Of a stretch of DNA of 39,144 nt, positions 1,792 to 39,144 are shown piece by piece. Position numbers and translations under genes: made by a program. The notes below the pieces were generated by a model that was given only the letters and a program-made list of their open reading frames with translations, was not told the DNA's origin and ran no database searches. Origin of the DNA: a virus (lineage: Duplodnaviria; Caudoviricetes); the IMG/VR virus record IMGVR_UViG_3300042923_000511, positions 1 to 39,144 of that record. One strand, given 5' to 3'. Position 1 is the stretch's first letter. Each line of letters opens with the position of its first letter.

Positions 1792-2079
1792 ATGTACGAT
1801 AAAGTTAGTTTAGGTAATAAAATATACATAGCACGTAAAAATAAAGGGTTAAAGCAAAGTGATATTTGCCAGGCAATAAATATAGGCCAGTCCGCTTTTT
1901 CCGACCTGGAAACTGGCAAGCGAGAAATAACTTTAACAGAACTATATAAATTGGCTGATGCTCTGGATGCTCCGATATCATGGTTGTTAGGTATTAATTT
2001 AGACAACGCGTTAACAGCAACGGAAATGTTAAAATTGGAAGAGTTTCGGCAGTATCTTATAAATATTCGGAAAAAATAA
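1792..2079 (+). CDS. XRE-family HTH transcriptional regulator
   Basis: LGNKIYIARKNKGLKQSDICQAINIGQSAFSDLETGKREI is an HTH_3 pattern; RBS GAGGTG. Confidence 0.9.
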   Translation: MYDKVSLGNKIYIARKNKGLKQSDICQAINIGQSAFSDLETGKREITLTELYKLADALDAPISWLLGINLDNALTATEMLKLEEFRQYLINIRKK

Positions 2080-2083
2080 CATT

Positions 2084-2117
2084 ACCCTGGCTTATTCAAG
2101 CAGGGTTTTATTTTTTA
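2084..2117 (+). terminator. Intrinsic terminator
   Basis: ACCCTG-g-CTT-attc-AAG-CAGGGT followed by a T-rich tract. Confidence 0.7.
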
Positions 2118-2136
2118 TTATATTCTAAAGAAAGTA

Positions 2137-2165
2137 TTGCATGATTTTGTATGTAATGGTATTAT
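2137..2165 (+). promoter_or_regulatory. sigma-A promoter of the MBL hydrolase/DUF3006 operon
   Basis: TTGCAT-17nt-TATTAT with a TG extended -10; RBS AAGGAGG downstream. Confidence 0.65.
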
Positions 2166-2195
2166 TTTACTTATAAATAACTAAGGAGGAATATA

Positions 2196-3191
2196 ATGAA
2201 ATCAATTAAAAGGGTAAGCGCATTATTATTAATCTTTGCAATAGCAATAGTATCTGTTTTCAGTATACAGGTTTTTGCATCGTCTAACACAATGAAAGTA
2301 CATTATATTGATGTCGGACAAGGAGATGCGGTTTTGATTGAATCAAATAGCAAATATATGCTTATAGATGCGGGGAGAGAAAAAAATACTGTTGCTGACT
2401 ACTTGAAAAAGCAGAAAATTAAAAAGTTAGATTATTTAATTTTAACACATCCAGATGCAGATCATATAGGTGGCTCAATCAGTATAGTAAATAATTACAC
2501 CATAGGCAAAATTATAATGCCTAATAAGTCGCACACAAGCAAAACATATGAAAACCTGCTTTTAGCAATTAAAAAGAAAGGTCTTAAAATTACCAAGCCT
2601 AAAGTTGGAACTGAATATGAAATTGGGGACGCAGAGTTTACAATTATTGCACCGAATAAAACTTACAGTGATAATAATAATTCTTCGATTGGGCTTAAGC
2701 TTGAAAATGGAGATACCAGTTTTTTATTTGTTGGAGATGCAGAAGAAAAGGCTATTAATGATATAATCAAGAATAAAATTGATATAAGTGCAGATGTACT
2801 CATGGTAGGACATCATGGTTCCGATTCCAGTACGACCGAAGAATTAATTGATGCTGTAGACCCTGATAGTGCAGTTATATCTGTTGGCAAAAACAACTAC
2901 GGGCACCCTACTGATTCGGTGCTTGATATGTTATCTAACCATGGCGTTGATATTTATCGTACTGACGAAAGCAGGACCATTATTGCAACGAGCAACGGAA
3001 AGAGTGTCGCAATAGATGCGGACATTTTCGAACACGAGGCAATTGAAAATGACAGCCAAATTGTATATGTAACAAAAACAGGTAAAAAATATCATCGTGA
3101 GAATTGCTCTGCGCTGAAAAGTAAAATAGAGACTACTTTAGATGATGTATTAAGTAAAGGCTTGACACCATGTGAAATATGCAATCCATAG
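2196..3191 (+). CDS. Secreted ComEC/Rec2-like metallo-beta-lactamase-fold hydrolase with a C-terminal Cys/His Zn-binding motif
   Basis: Signal peptide ending VFA; IDVGQGDA, THPDADHIGG, GD, HHGS and YGHP motifs; C-terminal VYVTKTGKKYH..C..PCEICNP. Confidence 0.9.
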   Translation: MKSIKRVSALLLIFAIAIVSVFSIQVFASSNTMKVHYIDVGQGDAVLIESNSKYMLIDAGREKNTVADYLKKQKIKKLDYLILTHPDADHIGGSISIVNNYTIGKIIMPNKSHTSKTYENLLLAIKKKGLKITKPKVGTEYEIGDAEFTIIAPNKTYSDNNNSSIGLKLENGDTSFLFVGDAEEKAINDIIKNKIDISADVLMVGHHGSDSSTTEELIDAVDPDSAVISVGKNNYGHPTDSVLDMLSNHGVDIYRTDESRTIIATSNGKSVAIDADIFEHEAIENDSQIVYVTKTGKKYHRENCSALKSKIETTLDDVLSKGLTPCEICNP

Positions 3192-3204
3192 GAGATGTTT
3201 AGTT

Positions 3205-3417
3205 ATGAAAGCTATAATTGATAGGTTCGAAGGAAAATATGCTGTGCTTGAATTAGAAGATGGAACGATGCAAGATATTGAAAGAATAAAGATTCCGCAA
3301 GAATCAAAAGAGGGAGATTGTTTAACGATATCTGTTGATAAGATTGAGATAGATATATCAGAAACAAACCAAAGGAGAGATAGTATTAAAAAGTTAATGA
3401 ACGAATTATTTGAATAA
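3205..3417 (+). CDS. DUF3006-family protein
   Basis: MKAIIDRFEGKYAVLE...EGD...LFE pattern; usual partner of this MBL family; start moved to ATG 3205 (RBS GGAG). Confidence 0.85.
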   Translation: MKAIIDRFEGKYAVLELEDGTMQDIERIKIPQESKEGDCLTISVDKIEIDISETNQRRDSIKKLMNELFE

Positions 3418-4477: not shown

Positions 4478-6061
4478 TTAATAAACTCCACCTAATCGGC
4501 TCTGTATAAATACTCTTAATATAATATCTGCTTCAACCCTTGCTGCCATGTTTGGATATATTTCTATTTCGTGTCTTCCTCTTGCGACTTTTCCATCTGT
4601 ATCTTTTGATAAATATGAAACGATATTTAGTCTGTCTGCACTAGTTCCTGTAAAGTCCACTGTGTTACCATCCACTTTTATAGTTACGCTCGTGATATTT
4701 ACTTCATACTCAACTATTCCTATTTTGGCAAAGTGCGTATGCCCTGGAATTGTTATTCCATGTGAGTGCGAAGATGGAGTGCCGCTAACAGTTGTGCTAT
4801 CGGTTGAAATTGATTGATTTTCAGTTTCTATAATTCCAAAATCACCGCGAAATTTCTTTGTTCGGAAAGTTAGTTCACAAGTATTTACGTTTACAACATC
4901 GTTATCAATAATAAAGGGAATGTAAGCAGGAATTAAATTATCGCAGTTGTCTTGGTAAGTAAAATTATACATATTTGTAGCACCTTGACTATACGCTTCA
5001 TTGACTTGTTGCTTACGCTCCAATTCAGCTTGGGTAGTTGCAATGCTAGAAATTTTATTATTTATCTGATATGAAACTTCATATTCTTTCGATAAATCAG
5101 ATATTTTTTCGCCTACGATTCTAGCCGAATATTCTTTATCTTCAACTATGATTCTAGTTACTGTATTTAACATTCTTCTTTCGTGTGCGTATTCAGGCAA
5201 TATTGATAAATCAGCACCGTTCACACTAAATGATATTTTAGGCTCTTTCCATTGGTTAAGAAGTGCTTGCGCTTTGGCTTTTAATGTTGTAGCGTCTTCC
5301 ATGCTTTTATCAATCCAAATATAAGACCGCTTACCCCATTTGGTTATAGATGCATCATCTTTTAAATATTTTTGTCCACTATTGACACGTTCGATTGTTA
5401 ATTGATTTACGCCCTCGCCAAACCCTTTTGGTATTAAATAATTTACAATATCGGTTGGGTCTGATATGTTGTTAAAATCCAACATGTCCTTGCCCCATCT
5501 GATTTCGGATTTAACATCATCGGATACCGCCTTTAGATTTAATACCCACGGATAAACAGTGGTATCATATGTAAACTCATAAGGCATATTAAAGGCTATT
5601 GGGATGCTCAATATTGGAGCTAACAGACCATTTTCATTTTCGAAAGAATACTCATAAAAATAATTAAAATCACATTCACCTAATACCCAACGTTCCGTTT
5701 CCTGCAGATTTAAAATGTTCTGTATGACTTGTGATGTCGAATATCCGCTATATTGAAAATATCCATCCATGACATCGTCTAACAATGTAGATATAACATG
5801 TTCACACGAGTATGTTATGCTTTCATTGCTTGCATTTTTTACGGTTTCTGTAGGCATAATACGGTATAGTCCGTAATTTCTTCTGCTGTCACCAATAGCC
5901 TCAATATAATTTAGATGGCTACACAACTCATTTTTTATATCGTTAAGCGGTAGACTAAAAGAAAATTGCCATACCTCATTCACATTTCTTTCTGTTGGAG
6001 TATCGAACGCATTTTCTAAAATACCTATATCATTCACATTCGTATCTTTTACTACAATCAA
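4478..6061 (-). CDS. Tail tip/baseplate hub protein (Tal, prophage-tail family)
   Basis: GILENAF...FSLPLND, IRWGKDM and PKGFGEG motifs; start moved to TTG 6061 after RBS AGGGGTGA. Confidence 0.8.
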   Translation of the reverse strand: MIVVKDTNVNDIGILENAFDTPTERNVNEVWQFSFSLPLNDIKNELCSHLNYIEAIGDSRRNYGLYRIMPTETVKNASNESITYSCEHVISTLLDDVMDGYFQYSGYSTSQVIQNILNLQETERWVLGECDFNYFYEYSFENENGLLAPILSIPIAFNMPYEFTYDTTVYPWVLNLKAVSDDVKSEIRWGKDMLDFNNISDPTDIVNYLIPKGFGEGVNQLTIERVNSGQKYLKDDASITKWGKRSYIWIDKSMEDATTLKAKAQALLNQWKEPKISFSVNGADLSILPEYAHERRMLNTVTRIIVEDKEYSARIVGEKISDLSKEYEVSYQINNKISSIATTQAELERKQQVNEAYSQGATNMYNFTYQDNCDNLIPAYIPFIIDNDVVNVNTCELTFRTKKFRGDFGIIETENQSISTDSTTVSGTPSSHSHGITIPGHTHFAKIGIVEYEVNITSVTIKVDGNTVDFTGTSADRLNIVSYLSKDTDGKVARGRHEIEIYPNMAARVEADIILRVFIQSRLGGVY

Positions 6062-6081
6062 TTCATCACCCCTTTTCAATT

Positions 6082-6112
6082 AAAAAGAGACTACCTGTTA
6101 AGATAATCTCTT
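6082..6112 (-). terminator. Intrinsic terminator inside the tail operon, after the SGNH tail-fibre gene
   Basis: Minus strand AAGAGATTATCT-taac-AGGTAGTCTCTT (12 bp, 2 G-U pairs) running into TTTTT. Confidence 0.75.
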
Positions 6113-6138
6113 GTGTCGCAATATGTTCCGATTGTTAA

Positions 6139-7983
6139 TTAAAGTTTTACTACTTTTAAACTCGGTGTGATTTTTGGCGTTACACCACCCACCGTAATGT
6201 ATACTCTAATATAATCATCTTTGTTTAATGATAATATATCGTGTAAATCTACGGTTTTGCTTTGAGTTCCTATAGCAGAAGATATCTTGTCATAAACATA
6301 CTTTTTGTTCATGCTTCCATTCACTTCTAGCCTTACAACTATGTCTGCATTTTCGGTTGCAATAACCTTCATTGTAAACAAAATATCGTATACGCCAGAT
6401 TTTGCAAACGTAAACGTTCCAGAACTTACCGTTAGGAGTTTTGTATCATCCACTCTGCTATTTGTAATTAATAGATATGGAGAGCCACTTGTTAATGTTT
6501 GTTCAACCGATTGATACACCCATGCAAAATCAACAAAAATAGGAATGTTTTTATCAGGGAAAGATTGTGTGTTTTTATATATTATAGCTTGTATATGTAG
6601 TAATGTGTTTGATGAACTAGCATTTTTTGTTGATTGATTAATTATCTTTAATGTATGTTTACCAGGTGTTAATTTGTAAGTTATTGAATTTCTAAAAACT
6701 GTAGAAGGATTATATGTATCAACTAAAGTTTGTGATACCCCATCGATTTCTGCGACAAATTGCCCTAATGCTGCACCAGAAGTATATACAATGGTTACTT
6801 CCTCCCCATCAAATTCCGTCGAAACATAATTATTTGGTGAATTAAAATAAAAGAACTTGCCACCTATAGTACTAGGACTGGTTGTCTGTACAGCACCAGT
6901 ATTATAAACTTTAAATCCATCAAGGCCATTTAGCATATTATATAAACTTGAAGGTGTTTCAATGAAATCGGTTGGCACAAAATAAGGTTTAAACCATTCA
7001 GCTATATAAGTTTGTCCTAACTCATTCAAGTGTGTACCGTCTAAATTTATATCAGCTTGAACAATGCTACCATCAGCGAAAGAACTTTCAAACATAGAAT
7101 ATACATCATAAAATCCTAAATTGTATTTCCTTGCAGTTTCTTCTGTTATTTTATTAAAGCTTTCTAAGACTATATTTCTTGATTCATCCATTAATGGAGT
7201 TGAACTTCTCAATATAACATCAATATCGTTTGTAGACAAAATTTCTTTTATTAACTCTCCATAATACTGTCTGAATAATGATGTTGATATTGCCGCACCA
7301 CCGTCATTATCGTTCGTACCACTTGAAACAATTATTAGGTCAGGATTGTTTATAAGAACTGACGAATACAATCTATCCCACATTTGCTTAATATTATTTC
7401 CGCCAACTCCTGCATTAATTACTGTAACCAATCCCGGATACAAACCGTTTAACCATGTCTCTAATTGAGCAACGTGTCCATTTGCTACATAAAAATCATC
7501 TGTAATACTATCACCTAAAAATACTATTGTAACTGCTTCTCCGTTTTTTAATTTGTTTATGGTTCTGTTTGCGTGAAAAGTTCTTTTCTTTGTCACAAAA
7601 TCTGCCAATTGCGAATTAACTTTCGCATATTCTGTATCTAATCTTTCTTTTAAAACGCCATATGCAAATCCAGAAGCATCTACTCTTGCTTGCGCTGCCT
7701 CAACGGAAGAATCTCCATCTATTACAATTTGATTAAGTTGTGTTTGGGTAGATTCCGAATTAGCAAGTGCGGCATTTGCAGCATCTAAAGCAGTTTGTGA
7801 TTTCACGCTAGCTGATTCTGCTGTTGCAACCGCTTCTTCTGCATCTTGGATTATTGCGTTAATCTTATCTTTTCCTTCTGCAAGCGTGTCTGTTGTTAAT
7901 AATAAATTCGCCATTATAATATTCCCTCCTAACAAAAGTAGGAATACTATTGCAATAATAATTTTAATCGTTTTACTTTTCAT
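6139..7983 (-). CDS. Tail fibre/receptor-binding protein with SGNH (GDSL) esterase, beta-sandwich and C1q-like domains; two in-frame starts (7983 gives 614 aa with a hydrophobic leader; 7914 gives 591 aa)
   Basis: Phage fibre N-terminus (GDSSVEAAQARVDASG..LKERLD); SGNH blocks FLGDSIT, GVGG, GTND and DGTH; RBS AGGGGG before 7983 and AGGAGG before 7914. Confidence 0.8.
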   Translation of the reverse strand: MKSKTIKIIIAIVFLLLLGGNIIMANLLLTTDTLAEGKDKINAIIQDAEEAVATAESASVKSQTALDAANAALANSESTQTQLNQIVIDGDSSVEAAQARVDASGFAYGVLKERLDTEYAKVNSQLADFVTKKRTFHANRTINKLKNGEAVTIVFLGDSITDDFYVANGHVAQLETWLNGLYPGLVTVINAGVGGNNIKQMWDRLYSSVLINNPDLIIVSSGTNDNDGGAAISTSLFRQYYGELIKEILSTNDIDVILRSSTPLMDESRNIVLESFNKITEETARKYNLGFYDVYSMFESSFADGSIVQADINLDGTHLNELGQTYIAEWFKPYFVPTDFIETPSSLYNMLNGLDGFKVYNTGAVQTTSPSTIGGKFFYFNSPNNYVSTEFDGEEVTIVYTSGAALGQFVAEIDGVSQTLVDTYNPSTVFRNSITYKLTPGKHTLKIINQSTKNASSSNTLLHIQAIIYKNTQSFPDKNIPIFVDFAWVYQSVEQTLTSGSPYLLITNSRVDDTKLLTVSSGTFTFAKSGVYDILFTMKVIATENADIVVRLEVNGSMNKKYVYDKISSAIGTQSKTVDLHDILSLNKDDYIRVYITVGGVTPKITPSLKVVKL

Positions 7984-8007
7984 ATTTATATGCCCCCTAT
8001 ACTGTGA

Positions 8008-8036
8008 ATTATAGGACATCAGAATTAAAATTGCAA
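8008..8036 (-). promoter_or_regulatory. Internal sigma-A promoter for the SGNH tail-fibre gene
   Basis: TTGCAA (8036-8031), 17 nt, TATAAT (8013-8008), in the intergenic gap after dit. Confidence 0.75.
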
Positions 8037-8072
8037 TAATTTCCTTGTTGTATTATGTAAGTTTTTAAGTAT

Positions 8073-8876
8073 TTAGATGTATTTATCTCTTGATTTGATT
8101 CTAATTAACAAGCTAATTCCCGTCCCGGTGATTGATATATTGTTATCACCTGGTATTAAAATAAAATCACGAAAATTAGATATAAACGTTCCTGCGTCGT
8201 CTTTTATTACTGTATATGTTTCGCAATCTATCACCCATGAAGCATTTGTAAATGTCCCAAGTGATATTGTATACCCATTTGCACTAATGACTAGGTCTGT
8301 TGCACTGCCTGTAATCTCAATCACCGGCTTAACTGCCATTCCATCAACTATAACACTTAGATTTGTTGCGCCTGTTATATTTACTAACCCATTAGAGCCG
8401 CTATGACCTAGCAAATAGCTTGACTGGAACGTAATAACTTCACTGCCCCATGTGATTTCGTCTGAATATACTTGGCTGTATGCATGGGGATTGTATGCTA
8501 CTAACCCAATAGACATTCTGCCAGTATTTATTGCTCTTTCGGCATCAATTTGTGAAGCGCACTGAACAATGTAATATTTATCTGGCTCATAATCGAATGA
8601 AAGTTTTATATCTTTCGGCTTTCCATAGACATCAAATAAAAAAGAGATGAAATCCCTCATTTTATGTTGCATCAAGGTTCTATCTCTTTCTATCATGATT
8701 AATGGAATCTGAAATACGCGCTCCCTTATTTCCGAACCAAAATTATATAATCCGTGTTTACCTGGTATGGCAATGGTTTTATTTTCGAAAGTAGGGGTCA
8801 ATGGATTCACGTGTCCAGGTTCGCATATCATTCCAAAATCTTTTAAGGTGTACGTGTCATTTAATAATATTTCCAT
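8073..8876 (-). CDS. Distal tail protein (Dit)
   Basis: Follows the TMP; IPGKHG...R.F, FDYEPDKYY and LIPGDNNI motifs. Confidence 0.85.
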   Translation of the reverse strand: MEILLNDTYTLKDFGMICEPGHVNPLTPTFENKTIAIPGKHGLYNFGSEIRERVFQIPLIMIERDRTLMQHKMRDFISFLFDVYGKPKDIKLSFDYEPDKYYIVQCASQIDAERAINTGRMSIGLVAYNPHAYSQVYSDEITWGSEVITFQSSYLLGHSGSNGLVNITGATNLSVIVDGMAVKPVIEITGSATDLVISANGYTISLGTFTNASWVIDCETYTVIKDDAGTFISNFRDFILIPGDNNISITGTGISLLIRIKSRDKYI

Positions 8877-11639
8877 TATCGCAACACCCCAACTTTCCTT
8901 GCGCCAGATTTGTTTTTAGTATTTAACAGTATACTCATGTCGTCTACTGTTTGCCTTGCTATTTCTTTTCCATTGATAGCAATAGGTCTGCTTGCTAATT
9001 GAACAATTGCATCTATTAATTCCACAATCCAATCGTTATCACTGCTGTTATTTAGACCTAGCATTTCTTTTAGGCTACTAAGTGGAGCAACCACTTCTGG
9101 ACCTGCTTCTCCAACGCCTTTTAGCCCGTATGGCGTGTTAAACAATGTAGGCTTGTCAAAGATGCCGCCTTTTGCGTACCATTCTACATTCAGCTTAGGA
9201 GTGCCCTCTTCTAGCCATTTTAACGGATTCATACTCATTGATGTTATCGTAAAGGCTTTTTATCCTCTACTTCTTATAGTTTCCTATAAGATCGGCGTAC
9301 ATTTTCACCTACGACTTTACGTTTAGGTGTTGAACACTCTTGGGGATATTTTATTCTGTTTGCACAGTTTCAATCCCTACGCTCTACGGTGGCTAAGACT
9401 TTTTAGTTTCATAGCTTACCTCGGTATTAGCATGATATTTTTTGATTAATTGAAGCAATAAATAATTCAAATTGTTCCCTAGTGTTTTTTCCCATACCAT
9501 AAACAGAATGAAATTCCTTGTGGCATTTCTTACATAAGGTTACTCCGTTTTCAACATTGGCTCTATTTCTTTTATCCCAATCATAACTATTTAAATGATG
9601 TGCGTTTAAGTTTCCGCCAACATTATCACCGCAACATTGACAAGTAAATTTATCTCTTTTATATACTTCTTGCCGCCAACTATAAGCGTTTTTTCCGTAT
9701 CTCTTTCTTTCTCTAGATTCAGAATCAATGCTCGCATCATAATGCGATGAATTTTCTCCTGCCCAATACTTTGTTAATCCTTTTCTCTGGCACTCATCAC
9801 TACAAAAATGATGTTTGCCTTTCTCGTAATGGCACTTTATGGCTTCTTTTTCTTTTCCGCATATTTCACATTTAAAAATTACTCTTTTCCTTGTATGAGC
9901 CTTGTCGTTTAATTTAAATTTTTTTATTCCTTCTTGAAAACACTCGTTACAAAAATGATGTTTCGACTTATTGAATAGGCTTAGTGGTCTTGTAATTTCT
10001 TTTTCACACAATTCACATTTAAACGTTACATTTTTGCCCTGACTTAAAGAATTGCATTTGCATCTCACTGAACAAAATCTAGCGATTTTCTCCTTGGATT
10101 TAAATTTTACTCCACAATATTCACATATAAGTTCATATTTTGAATTATTGCACTCTTTGCAAATAGTTCTTCTTCCGTCACTTGCCCTATTATCTTTATA
10201 AAATTCATTTAAGTCTTTGTGTTTTCCACATTTCGTGCATTGTTTAATCATTTTTTATTCCTCCGTTTCGTATAATTGTATTATACCACATTTTACTATT
10301 GGAGGCAATATAAAAATATTTTAGCTTTCACCGATTTTGTTCAATACTAGGCTGCAATTTTCATTGTAGCCGCGGCAATATGATGTTTACCGCTTATACT
10401 AAAGTGTGGCAATTTTAATTTAGGCCATTTAAATTCAAAACTAAAGAATCCTTTAATCTTTTCAATGGCTTTTGACACTATATCCTTAGCTCCATCCATA
10501 ACATCTGATATTTTCTTTTTGATATTATCAAAAGTTGTTTTAATGCCGTCCCATAACGCGCTAGCCTTAGCTTTAATAGTATCCCAGTTCTTATAAAGGA
10601 CTATCCCGATTGCAATGAGAGCAGCTATAGCCGCCACTACTAATCCAATTGGGTTTGCCATCATGGCTGCAGAAAGACTAAGTTGCGCACCAGTAGCACT
10701 TGTGGTAAATGCGGTATATGCCGCCATTAATCCACTTAAAACACTAATGATTTTTAACGCGATAAATGCCCCTAAAAGACCGCCTAAGATTGGGATGAGT
10801 ATATTGGAATTTTCTGCTATAAAACCTATTACATCACCTATGCCGCCAAGTATTGTACCTGCGGTTTCTTTGATTTGTGGCATATTATCAAGAAACCATT
10901 GCAACATTGTTGTAAGCTGTGGCATTAATTCGGACATGATTCCATTTTTTACACCGTCTAAGCTACCTTTTACATCCGCTAACGTATCGCCAAACACAAC
11001 TCCATTAGAAACAGCATCCTCGGACATTACAATTCCAAGTTCATCAGCTCGATTTTTTAAATCTGTCATTCCGTCTGCACCGGATTGTATTAATGGTTTT
11101 AATTCCGTATAGGATTTACCTAATAGGTCATTGCCAATGCTATTCTTTAACGCGCCATCTTCCATATTTGCGAGCGCGTACATGACTTCATTAAAGGTTT
11201 CTTCTGGTGACATAGTGGCAAGGTCTGACATGCTTATTCCCAGTTTTTCGTATGCTGATTGTGCTGCCGCTCCACCATTTTGCGCATCCACCATTGTATC
11301 TGATAACTTTTTCATGCCAGTTTCAAGGACCGTTATGTCTGCTCCTGATTGACCTGCAGCATATCCCCAACGTTGTAGTTCTTCTACTGCGATACCGGTT
11401 CTAAGGCTCAATTTATCCCACTTGTCTGCTGTTTCTGCGGTACCGTTTGCAAGTGCTGTAATTCCACCTAATACTGCTCCTGTTCCTGCGGCTACTGCTC
11501 CTGTTATTTTAGCACCTGCATCTGCTATTTTATCAAGGCTTAGCTTAGTATCTTTGCCTTGTTTATCTGTCTTTTTTAATGTATCGATTGCTTCTTTGTT
11601 ATCGATAAGTACAGTTCCAAATAAACGAAAGAGTTCCAT
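8876..11639 (-). CDS. Tail tape measure protein, two exons (11639-10389 and 9235-8876; spliced product 536 aa)
   Basis: Ala/Gly-rich TMP with MANPIGLVVAAIAAL...LYKNWD; the spliced junction reads LPHFSISG/SMNPLKWLEEGTPKLNVEWYAKGG in frame. Confidence 0.9.
9427..10251 (-). CDS. Intron-encoded HNH homing endonuclease with repeated CxxC zinc fingers
   Basis: RDKFTCQCC...LNAHH...NGVTLCKKCHKEFH; multiple CxxC...FCS repeats; RBS GGAGG. Confidence 0.9.
   Translation of the reverse strand: MIKQCTKCGKHKDLNEFYKDNRASDGRRTICKECNNSKYELICEYCGVKFKSKEKIARFCSVRCKCNSLSQGKNVTFKCELCEKEITRPLSLFNKSKHHFCNECFQEGIKKFKLNDKAHTRKRVIFKCEICGKEKEAIKCHYEKGKHHFCSDECQRKGLTKYWAGENSSHYDASIDSESRERKRYGKNAYSWRQEVYKRDKFTCQCCGDNVGGNLNAHHLNSYDWDKRNRANVENGVTLCKKCHKEFHSVYGMGKNTREQFELFIASINQKISC
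10280..10308 (-). promoter_or_regulatory. Intron-internal sigma-A promoter for the HNH gene
   Basis: TTGCCT-17nt-TATAAT with a TG extended -10. Confidence 0.7.
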
Positions 11640-38186: not shown

Positions 38187-38246
38187 TAACGTTGGCATAT
38201 GGTAGGCAAACTAAATTATAGCTGTTATTTTATTAATGTAGACAGT
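38168..38246. repeat. Putative integrase arm-type sites, right end
   Basis: TTTGCCTACC (38168), CGTTGGCATA (38190), GGTAGGCAAA (38201), TGTAGACAGT (38237). Confidence 0.55.
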
Positions 38247-39144
38247 TGGTTTTACTGCAAAGTAATGCAACGGTCTCCACATGCACACTATGCCCAAACT
38301 GATCCACCGCCTGCACTCTTTTCATCTCATACCCTCTACCGCACAGATACTTTAAATCTCGTGCCAGTGTTGCCGGATCGCAGGAGACATACACAACCTT
38401 TTTTGGTGCCATTTGTACGATAGTATCTAACAGACTCTCGTCGCACCCTTTTCTTGGGGGATCTACAACGATAACATCTGCATAGATATTTTCTTCTTTA
38501 TATTTTTCTGGAAGGATGTCTTCTGCTGCTCCAACGAAGAATTCTGCGTTCTGAATAAAATTAATCTCTGCATTTCTTTTTGCATCCTCTATTGCCTCAG
38601 GTATAATCTCTACCCCATATACCTGTTTTGCTTTCCCTGCCAGGAACAAGGAAATGGTTCCGATTCCACAGTAAAGATCCCATACAACCTCATTCCCATG
38701 TAAGTCAGCATATTCTAGTGCAATTTCATACAATTTTTTTGTCTGTACCGGATTTACCTGATAAAAGGATAGGGGGGATATCTGATATTTGATTTTACCA
38801 ATATAATCAGTAATATAAGGTTGCCCCCACAAGGTAATCACTTTATTACCAAGTATCACATTGGTTTTCTCCTGATTAAGGTTCAGACTAATACTTGTCA
38901 TATGAGGAATGCGGGTTAAAAACTCTATAAATTCCTCCTGGTGAGGAAGTTTTGTTCCATTGATTACCAGGCACACCATAATCTCACCTGTTGTAAAACC
39001 CACTCTGGTAAGGATATGGCGAACCAATCCAGTGTGGGTCTCTTCTTCATATACACTGATTTTGTATTCCACTAAAAATCTGCGAATCTGCTCTATTATT
39101 ATGTCATTAATGTCAGCCTGAATGTAACAATGGGAAGTGTCAAT
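38233..39144 (-). CDS. rlmD: 23S rRNA (uracil-1939-C5)-methyltransferase, 3' part (5' end outside the window); last codons phage-derived
   Basis: SFYQVN, DLYCGIGTI, VDPPRKG, YVSCDPATLARD and HVETV motifs. Confidence 0.95.
   Translation of the reverse strand: MDTSHCYIQADINDIIIEQIRRFLVEYKISVYEEETHTGLVRHILTRVGFTTGEIMVCLVINGTKLPHQEEFIEFLTRIPHMTSISLNLNQEKTNVILGNKVITLWGQPYITDYIGKIKYQISPLSFYQVNPVQTKKLYEIALEYADLHGNEVVWDLYCGIGTISLFLAGKAKQVYGVEIIPEAIEDAKRNAEINFIQNAEFFVGAAEDILPEKYKEENIYADVIVVDPPRKGCDESLLDTIVQMAPKKVVYVSCDPATLARDLKYLCGRGYEMKRVQAVDQFGHSVHVETVALLCSKTNCLH
38273..38292. repeat. Prophage att core, right copy
   Basis: Direct repeat of 1025-1044 within the rlmD codons HSVHVET. Confidence 0.9.

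What the first reader, a model, noticed from the sequence alone, without database searches (positions are those of the whole stretch)
6082..8036. Dual-start tail-fibre esterase wired as its own transcription unit: one gene for a virion RBP and a membrane-anchored or secreted lysogen enzyme?
Seen: inside the late tail operon this gene has (i) its own near-consensus sigma-A promoter TTGCAA-17-TATAAT (8036-8008); (ii) its own terminator (6112-6082); (iii) two in-frame ATGs, each with an SD. ATG 7983 (AGGGGG) adds MKSKTIKIIIAIVFLLLLGGNII, a basic n-region plus hydrophobic h-region typical of a Sec signal or anchor. ATG 7914 (AGGAGG, encoded in the leader's L-G-G codons) starts the ordinary fibre N-terminus MANLLL. 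The body is an SGNH esterase with intact Ser and Asp-x-x-His plus two beta-sandwich domains. Known: SGNH tailspikes de-O-acetylate surface polysaccharides; virion proteins normally lack signal peptides; morons have their own promoter and terminator. Inference: the lysogen exports the same enzyme the virion uses on its receptor and so modifies or masks that receptor. This would give superinfection exclusion that automatically tracks RBP specificity. I do not know a described case of this design.
Basis: partly seen in the sequence, partly recalled or inferred. Interest (0 to 1): 0.9.

Follow-up and report, generated by a model that had tools for sequence, protein, structure and literature searches.

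The report
Tail fibre with switchable export signal
A prophage of the bacterium Herbinix has a tail-fibre gene with its own promoter and two in-frame starts, a design repeated in related phages, and a conserved predicted RNA fold likely lets the one gene make either the virus's attachment enzyme or an exported copy that would strip the same docking sugar from the host cell.

Summary
Confirmed and extended. The promoter (8036-8008), two in-frame SD/ATG starts (7983, 7914), SGNH triad and terminator are all there. The design is not chance: five related phage loci show the same cassette in DNA (one frameshifted), and nine different basic-hydrophobic leaders precede fibres with SGNH, beta-helix or GH43 heads and two unrelated N-terminal docking domains; close relatives lack it and often carry a separate acyltransferase moron instead. 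New here: a predicted RNA switch. On the short promoter transcript start 1 is open and a leader hairpin closes start 2; on the read-through late transcript, sequence upstream of the transcription start (including the -35 and -10 boxes) pairs with the leader, burying start 1 and loosening start 2. This holds in 5 of 5 cassettes, beats all 40 shuffles each, and covaries. Most likely the late mRNA gives the virion fibre and the promoter mRNA an exported enzyme that removes the phage's own receptor. Export, expression in lysogens and exclusion are untested; no RNA run was available. No description found in ten literature searches.

The parts
8073..8876 (-). Distal tail protein (Dit) gene; its late transcript reads through into the cassette
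   Evidence: PF05709 and phrog_33
8017..8052 (-). Upstream arm of the predicted long-range RNA helix; includes the -35 box and promoter spacer, so it is present only on read-through mRNA
   Evidence: 29-pair duplex with the leader, -22.8 kcal/mol, 0 of 2000 shuffles as strong; covariation
8008..8036 (-). Sigma-A-type promoter TTGCAA-17-TATAAT; start site predicted near 8001
   Evidence: TTGCAW-17-TATAAT conserved in 5 of 5 cassettes
7995..8016 (-). Inner hairpin on read-through mRNA: the -10 region pairs with SD1
   Evidence: predicted folds; consensus helix of -10 box with the bases at ATG1
7993..7998 (-). SD1 (AGGGGG) for the long form
7915..7983 (-). 23-codon leader from ATG1: basic n-region, 11-residue hydrophobic core, GG; also the 3' arm of the long helix (7969-7931) and the anti-SD2 (7944-7940)
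7916..7950 (-). Hairpin on the short promoter mRNA that closes SD2
   Evidence: predicted fold; opening energy of RBS2 9.8 vs RBS1 1.6 kcal/mol
7925..7930 (-). SD2 (AGGAGG) for ATG2 at 7914, the start used by cassette-less relatives
7594..7914 (-). Virion anchor domain (DGDSSVEAAQARV family), shared by fibres with many different heads
   Evidence: relative gp20 of phage 0105phi7-2 (60% over 43 residues) is a virion protein by mass spectrometry
6991..7527 (-). SGNH esterase domain; S159 (7509), G195, N224, D315 (7041), H318 (7032)
   Evidence: PF13472 E 1e-18; fold matches 6HFZ, 9LNA, 4QNL
6571..6942 (-). First beta-sandwich, likely carbohydrate-binding
   Evidence: model; weak CE2_N hit below cut-off; SGNH plus sandwich aligns to 6HFZ
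6139..6531 (-). Second beta-sandwich, C1q-like, likely trimerisation; stop at 6139
   Evidence: weak PF00386 hit below cut-off; C1q structures among fold matches
6080..6112 (-). Intrinsic terminator closing the unit before the Tal and lysis genes
4478..6079 (-). Tal-type tail protein gene downstream
   Evidence: PF06605, phrog_4311

Best explanation
One fibre gene carries its own promoter and two in-frame starts, and a predicted RNA switch likely makes the late read-through mRNA yield the ordinary virion fibre while the short promoter mRNA yields a signal-peptide form that would be exported and would strip or cut the host surface polysaccharide that the phage itself uses as receptor. Shown in sequence: promoter, two SD/ATG starts, leader, intact esterase, terminator, and their recurrence before different fibre heads. 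Predicted by folding and supported by covariation: on the short mRNA start 1 is open and start 2 is closed by an anti-SD in the leader; on the long mRNA the region upstream of the start site captures that anti-SD and buries start 1. Inferred: Sec export (cleaved more likely than anchored), expression in the lysogen and early in infection, loss of receptor O-acetyl groups, hence superinfection exclusion and protection of released progeny, with a specificity that follows every swap of the fibre head.
For: Cassette in DNA in 5 distinct phage loci: window (= L213, Herbinix sp. MAG), L338/L368, L003, L002 (= L225, L257), L224. Nine different full leaders, M-K first, G and Met2 invariant in the 8 aligned. 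Leader lengths 57, 66, 66, 69 nt, all in frame, both other frames closed in the 3 printed. Heads differ: SGNH, beta-helix, GH43; docking domains differ (anchor type vs the L002/P0236 type). Switch score 10.2, 6.3, 13.7, 10.9, 14.9 kcal/mol, reached by 0 of 40 shuffles each with -35 and -10 held fixed; duplex z -3.7 to -5.0; each upstream arm pairs best with its own leader, 5 of 5. RNAalifold finds both helices unprompted in 4 sequences; 93% cells paired, 5 of 26 pairs change on both sides, slid controls 44-62%. 2-3 G.U pairs per helix. Real-gene control: 4 of 4 cassettes but 1 of 56 other promoter-SD-ATG genes have z below -3, and 0 of the 6 other genes with hydrophobic N-termini. RBS2 on the long mRNA (2.8-8.1) is as open as the fibre RBS of 6 cassette-less phages (3.1-8.9). 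The same head occurs with a leader (P0240) or without one and followed by an acyltransferase moron (P0238 = L259). SGNH fibres are active esterases and acetylation-negative hosts resist phage G7C (PMC13123978, PMC10743462, passages).
Against: No expression, ribosome or proteomic data; no signal-peptide predictor was available. A clean A-x-A cleavage site is present in only some leaders. The switch is incomplete in L338 (RBS2 8.1 vs RBS1 7.2 on the long mRNA), and in L003 and L224 the full long helix is the best fold only for the nascent RNA cut before SD2. L224 has a one-base frameshift in the leader with promoter intact, and P0017, P0022, P0030 are called from later starts, so the long form may be lost in some lineages. 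L003 has no terminator between fibre and Tal, only after Tal. Most relatives lack the cassette (2 of 92 anchor frames), and L214 has neither cassette nor moron. Only 4-5 related sequences underlie the covariation, and that test is lenient for kin. The best fold match is a bacterial esterase of acetylated mannans; the substrate is unknown. A chromosomal GH43 gene has a look-alike leader with SD and second Met (L374).
Confidence: 0.55

Rival explanations
1. Same two products and switch, but the exported enzyme serves release rather than immunity: it is made only on induction or early in infection and clears capsule, cell debris or biofilm so that progeny escape.
For: A consensus sigma-A promoter would fire early in infection as well as in a lysogen (inference); L003 lacks a terminator before Tal; loss of a surface polysaccharide could be costly to a lysogen.
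Against: The unit is closed by a terminator before the lysis genes in the cassette loci examined, and cassette-less relatives fill the same slot with promoter-bearing acyltransferase morons, a lysogenic-conversion pattern.
Confidence: 0.17
2. The exported form is a host-benefit enzyme that acts on plant or foreign polysaccharides (nutrition, or attack on neighbouring non-lysogens), not on the lysogen's own surface.
For: Top fold match is an esterase active on acetylated mannans (6HFZ); the host genus includes H. hemicellulosilytica; heads include GH43 and pectate-lyase-like folds.
Against: The heads are the usual fast-swapping fibre heads on a virion anchor and the cassette is indifferent to head type, which fits tracking of the receptor rather than a nutrient.
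Confidence: 0.1
3. The leader is translated but tethers the fibre in the membrane (uncleaved anchor or decoy receptor shield), or only sets the amount of fibre made, without enzymatic remodelling of the surface.
For: In the window residues 8-29 are uncharged; several leaders lack A-x-A; the hairpins could serve dosage control.
Against: K or R follows an 11-13-residue core in L003, P0008 and P0236, as in cleavable signals; the predicted switch shuts start 1 exactly on the mRNA where assembly happens.
Confidence: 0.13
4. The leader is a by-product: the T-rich complement of an A-rich promoter arm (a hairpin, operator or RNase site) happens to read as hydrophobic codons, or it is the stub of a deleted moron; only ATG 7914 is used.
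For: The 3' helix arm does encode the hydrophobic core; L224 is frameshifted.
Against: SD1, ATG1 and the basic n-region lie in the loop, outside the long helix, and are kept; lengths vary by whole codons; nine leaders, none with a stop or an acidic residue in the core.
Confidence: 0.05

Closest known systems
SGNH esterase tail fibres and spikes (E. coli phage G7C gp63.1, PDB 4QNL; Klebsiella prophage SGNH fibres, PMC13123978)
   Same: Virion anchor plus SGNH domain with intact triad plus beta-sandwich domains; fold matches 4QNL and 9LNA.
   Different: No own promoter, leader or second product is described there ('signal peptide' and 'secreted' occur 0 times in the main text of PMC13123978); Gram-positive-type host here.
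Promoter-inside-hairpin translational control of T4 genes e, soc, I-TevI, segB, mobE (PMC2988022, section 12 read)
   Same: An RBS is buried on long transcripts and free on the transcript from a promoter placed inside the hairpin.
   Different: There it is an on/off timer for one product; here a second, mutually exclusive hairpin is predicted to switch between two starts and two destinations, and the short transcript comes from a host-type promoter.
Dual-start lambda S holin/antiholin with its sdi hairpin (recalled, no call)
   Same: Two in-frame starts whose use is set by RNA structure.
   Different: Two extra residues on one mRNA, versus a 19-23-residue export signal chosen by mRNA 5' end.
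Morons for receptor masking and superinfection exclusion (seroconverting acyl/glycosyl transferases; Zip and the anti-Kronos effect, bioRxiv 2024.03.05.583538, abstract read; T5 Llp and Cor, recalled or listing only)
   Same: Own promoter and terminator inside the late operon; same slot holds acyltransferase morons in relatives; predicted outcome is loss of receptor.
   Different: Those are dedicated genes; here the receptor-binding protein itself would be the exclusion factor.
Yeast SUC2 invertase and retroviral Env receptor interference or viral receptor-destroying enzymes (recalled, no call)
   Same: mRNA 5' end decides signal peptide or none (SUC2); the attachment protein made by the resident virus neutralises its receptor (Env).
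   Different: Eukaryotic; in SUC2 the longer mRNA gives the secreted form by simple inclusion, here the shorter one is predicted to, by refolding.

Membership tests
SGNH/GDSL hydrolase | Blocks I, II, III, V with Ser, Gly, Asn, Asp-x-x-His | tested here: met
   S159, G195, N224, D315, H318, invariant in 9 rows; PF13472 68.7 bits over cut-off 32.9
SGNH/GDSL hydrolase | Esterase activity on an acetylated substrate | not testable with these tools
   needs assay
Siphophage receptor-binding side fibre | Position in the tail module next to Dit and Tal | tested here: met
Siphophage receptor-binding side fibre | Conserved N-terminal virion anchor with exchangeable heads | tested here: met
   relative gp20 found in virions
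Siphophage receptor-binding side fibre | This protein present in virions and binding the host | not testable with these tools
   needs virion proteomics
Moron | Own host-type promoter and terminator inside the late operon | tested here: met
   terminator missing directly after the gene in L003
Moron | Extra gene absent from relatives | tested here: not met
   The gene is a core tail gene in all relatives; only the 145-nt or so cassette is optional
Moron | Expressed from the repressed prophage | not testable with these tools
   no RNA holder listed
Sec signal peptide (SPase I) | Basic n-region and 7-15-residue hydrophobic h-region | tested here: met
   9 leaders; mean hydropathy of best 11-residue window 3.0-3.8 where computed
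Sec signal peptide (SPase I) | Small residues at -3 and -1 of a cleavage site | tested here: inconclusive
   A-M-A in P0236, S-M-A in L003, I-M-A in the window; none after Met2 in L338 or P0008; cleavage at the GG is possible (read by eye)
Lipoprotein signal (SPase II) | Lipobox Cys at the end of the h-region | tested here: not met
   no Cys there in the 8 aligned leaders
T4-type RBS-sequestering hairpin with internal promoter | 5' arm lies upstream of the start site and covers the RBS | tested here: met
   predicted in 5 of 5; start site itself not mapped
Superinfection exclusion system | Blocks adsorption or entry of a second phage | not testable with these tools
   needs lysogen assays

The most novel reading that the evidence does not exclude
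A portable cassette of about 150 nt in which the promoter boxes double as RNA switch arms turns any tail-fibre enzyme into a two-destination protein: virion part from the late mRNA, secreted receptor-destroying enzyme from the lysogen's mRNA. It would be the phage counterpart of retroviral receptor interference, with immunity that follows each fibre-head swap at no extra gene.
Probability: 0.5. Interest if true: 0.93.

Novelty: categorically new. Interest (0 to 1): 0.88.

Why it matters
Temperate phages swap fibre heads often, and each swap should break a dedicated exclusion gene; using the fibre itself solves that. It overturns the rule of thumb that tailed-phage virion proteins carry no export signals, shows a promoter whose -35, spacer and -10 are also under RNA-pairing constraint, and gives a compact natural switch that selects protein destination by mRNA start. 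The switch can be tested at once with reporter fusions in a laboratory host. It also warns that such fibres are mis-annotated, as lipases or with either start.

Tried and rejected
Terminator-hairpin artefact (A-tract and T-tract reading as KKR...SFL): rejected, the DNA of L002, L003 and L224 has no such hairpin at the leader. Expression: no RNA holder listed; the two DNA runs are contigs and X1 may be the window's source. Rfam: no match for the cassette or the TMP insertion. Leader-only protein search returned only the query. DNA patterns in viral contigs gave no new cassette: 115 loci, only L002 and L003 with a hydrophobic leader and second SD-Met; 3 loci, two inside coding DNA. Genome searches: 401 family and 401 order genomes and 151 and 201 relatives gave one new cassette, G469. 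ESM Atlas: nothing above 0.8 by features. Dit tree: cassette needs 3 changes, and two phages with identical Dit differ in state, but direction of gain or loss is not resolved. A Tal alignment was dropped after frame errors. No complex was folded. L003 was left out of the RNAalifold alignment because its 3' arm aligned poorly.

Full report
Setting. The window is a temperate siphophage genome of 39 kb with integrase, terminase, portal, capsid, tail and lysis genes. A Herbinix sp. MAG holds the same prophage (L213; 100% over the 17,307 bases compared), so the host is likely a member of the Lachnospiraceae. The gene lies between Dit (8073-8876) and Tal (4478-6079), an order shared by most relatives.

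Observation. The promoter and terminator matches alone are within chance for this DNA. The body is a virion anchor, an SGNH domain with S159, G195, N224, D315, H318 and two beta-sandwiches (model of residues 132-614, mean pLDDT 79). Fold matches are a two-domain esterase of acetylated mannans (6HFZ), phage fibres 9LNA and G7C gp63.1 (4QNL), and C1q domains. The anchor carries many different heads (174 hits, 120 listed), and a relative, gp20 of phage 0105phi7-2, is a virion protein (PMC10219371, passages).

The cassette is conserved and optional. Most anchor genes start straight after Dit: 2 of 92 anchor frames had an in-frame hydrophobic leader (duplicates included), 4 of 120 proteins. But in the Dit clade around this phage, five distinct loci show TTGCAW-17-TATAAT, an SD, ATG, a basic-hydrophobic leader ending in GG, and the usual fibre ATG: the window, L338 (G469), L003, L002 (also L225, L257) and L224. 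L224 has one A too few in the leader; P0008, P0009 and P0013 have the same leader intact. Protein searches add leaders in P0122, P0123, P0236 and P0240: nine different full leaders in all, four of them seen intact in DNA. Heads are SGNH, beta-helix or GH43. In L002 and P0236 the leader precedes a different N-terminal domain, behind a separate 128-aa anchor gene in L002. Leader lengths are 57, 66, 66 and 69 nt; shuffling gave 0 of 20000 equally open, basic and hydrophobic leaders for each of the three tested. Four clade members lack the cassette before the anchor: L226 (followed by a hexapeptide-repeat transferase), L259 (acyltransferase-3 with its own promoter), L214 (neither) and L258 (contig ends). 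L226 and L257 are identical over 1,211 bases of Dit and anchor, and one head occurs both with a leader (P0240) and without (P0238, L259). In run X2 one related contig matches the -35 region and has a gap of the same length (376 vs 377 letters), two have shorter gaps; two contigs of X1 go from Dit directly to SD-ATG (inferred from lengths and loose ends). The terminator goes with any independent unit in the slot, cassette or moron; L003 has it only after Tal.

The RNA switch. With a start 5-7 bases after the -10 box, the cost of opening RBS1 and RBS2 is 1.6/9.8 (window), 4.0/11.2, 1.5/10.7, 2.4/6.4 and 1.8/12.6 kcal/mol: an anti-SD inside the leader pairs with SD2. On read-through RNA the values become 7.8/5.8, 7.2/8.1, 10.9/6.4, 11.4/4.4 and 7.0/2.8. 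The cause is a 21-29-pair helix between the stretch around -35, absent from the short RNA, and the leader, with an inner hairpin of the -10 region over SD1 or ATG1; it is the best fold of the nascent long RNA in 5 of 5. The shift exceeds all 40 shuffles in each cassette with both boxes held fixed; duplex energies lie 3.7-5.0 SD below 2000 shuffles (0, 0, 10, 3 and 6 as strong); every arm pairs best with its own leader (5 of 5; 4 of 5 the other way round, and 4 of 5 for -35 plus spacer alone). RNAalifold on four cassettes (L003 left out) finds both helices; 93% of cells pair, 5 of 26 pairs change on both sides, 2 of 500 shuffles reach the covariation score, slid controls pair 44-62%; the tool warns that kin can pass this test. 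G.U pairs in every helix point to RNA rather than a DNA palindrome. Among 60 distinct promoter-SD-ATG genes in the fetched loci the four intact cassettes rank in the top five; 1 of 56 others and 0 of 6 other hydrophobic-start genes pass z -3. Against: the switch is partial in L338, and in L003 and L224 the full-length best fold keeps the SD2 hairpin, so kinetics would have to help.

How it most likely works. Late operon mRNA: start 1 buried, start 2 about as open as in cassette-less phages (3.1-8.9 kcal/mol, 6 loci), giving a cytoplasmic fibre for assembly. Promoter mRNA, ending at the terminator before Tal and the lysis genes: start 1 only, giving a Sec substrate. The short cores and the K or R after them favour cleavage and release to the wall or medium; the site is uncertain. 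The exported esterase would remove O-acetyl groups from the receptor polysaccharide; in G7C, acetylation-negative hosts are fully resistant (PMC10743462, passages), and SGNH fibres of Klebsiella prophages are active esterases (PMC13123978, passages). This would exclude superinfection and spare progeny from adsorbing to lysogens (anti-Kronos effect; bioRxiv 2024.03.05.583538, abstract). Export, expression and phenotype are inferred. Odds: two products under an RNA switch about 0.85; long form exported about 0.75; receptor-level exclusion as its purpose about 0.55.

Known and new. The parts have precedents: T4 genes with a promoter inside an RBS hairpin (PMC2988022, section 12), the lambda S dual start, SUC2 and retroviral receptor interference (all three recalled), and morons. 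Ten searches of the open-licence library (listings, five papers opened as stated) showed no fibre gene with a switchable export signal; subscription journals are not covered and no supplements were read. Two earlier notes of this scan report signal peptides on tail-spike-like proteins of other phyla, without a second start or switch in their text; they were not checked.

Verdict. A real, conserved and apparently undescribed design with strong in-silico support for the switch and an untested but coherent function. Interest 0.88.

Noticed in passing
window 9233-10387 (-): The tape-measure gene is interrupted by a 1,155-base insertion with an HNH endonuclease ORF (9427-10251) and its own promoter (10308-10280); a related phage contig joins 9232 to 10388. 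Ends (U before, G last) look like a group I intron by eye, but Rfam gives no match: possibly an unmodelled intron subtype.
   Followed up: partly
L374 (G404:C39 chromosome), 1646-1580 (-): A host GH43 gene has a look-alike leader with GG, an SD and a second Met; no consensus promoter at the cassette distance. Host enzymes may use dual starts too, or be the source of the leader.
   Followed up: partly
L224 2600-2670; P0017, P0022, P0030: One-A loss in the A-run after ATG1 takes the leader out of frame while promoter and helices remain: decay, assembly error or an on/off slip.
   Followed up: partly
L226, L259, L262, L263, L009 and L376, between fibre and Tal or just after the fibre or Tal: Cassette-less relatives carry surface-related morons: hexapeptide transferase, acyltransferase-3, multi-pass membrane proteins (O-antigen-ligase-related in 0105phi7-2), and stand-alone membrane-anchored SGNH proteins.
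   Followed up: partly
window 1792-3417 (+): HTH regulator, secreted ComEC-like metallo-beta-lactamase-fold protein with a classic signal peptide and DUF3006, after the lysis genes; a similar remnant lies in L368.
   Followed up: no
window 1531-1503 (-): A second TTGCAA-17-TATAAT promoter before a small ORF (1325-1489) with a terminator at 1252-1228, near the prophage end.
   Followed up: no
L002 3001-5195: Fibre split into a 128-aa anchor and a second gene with its own N-terminal domain; the cassette sits on the enzyme-bearing second gene, not on the anchor.
   Followed up: partly
L182: The one non-cassette gene with strong pairing between its promoter region and 5' coding sequence (z -3.9); it has no hydrophobic start.
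   Followed up: no
window 38233-39072 (-): 3' part of a 23S rRNA/tRNA uracil methyltransferase gene beside the integrase, likely the integration site.
   Followed up: no
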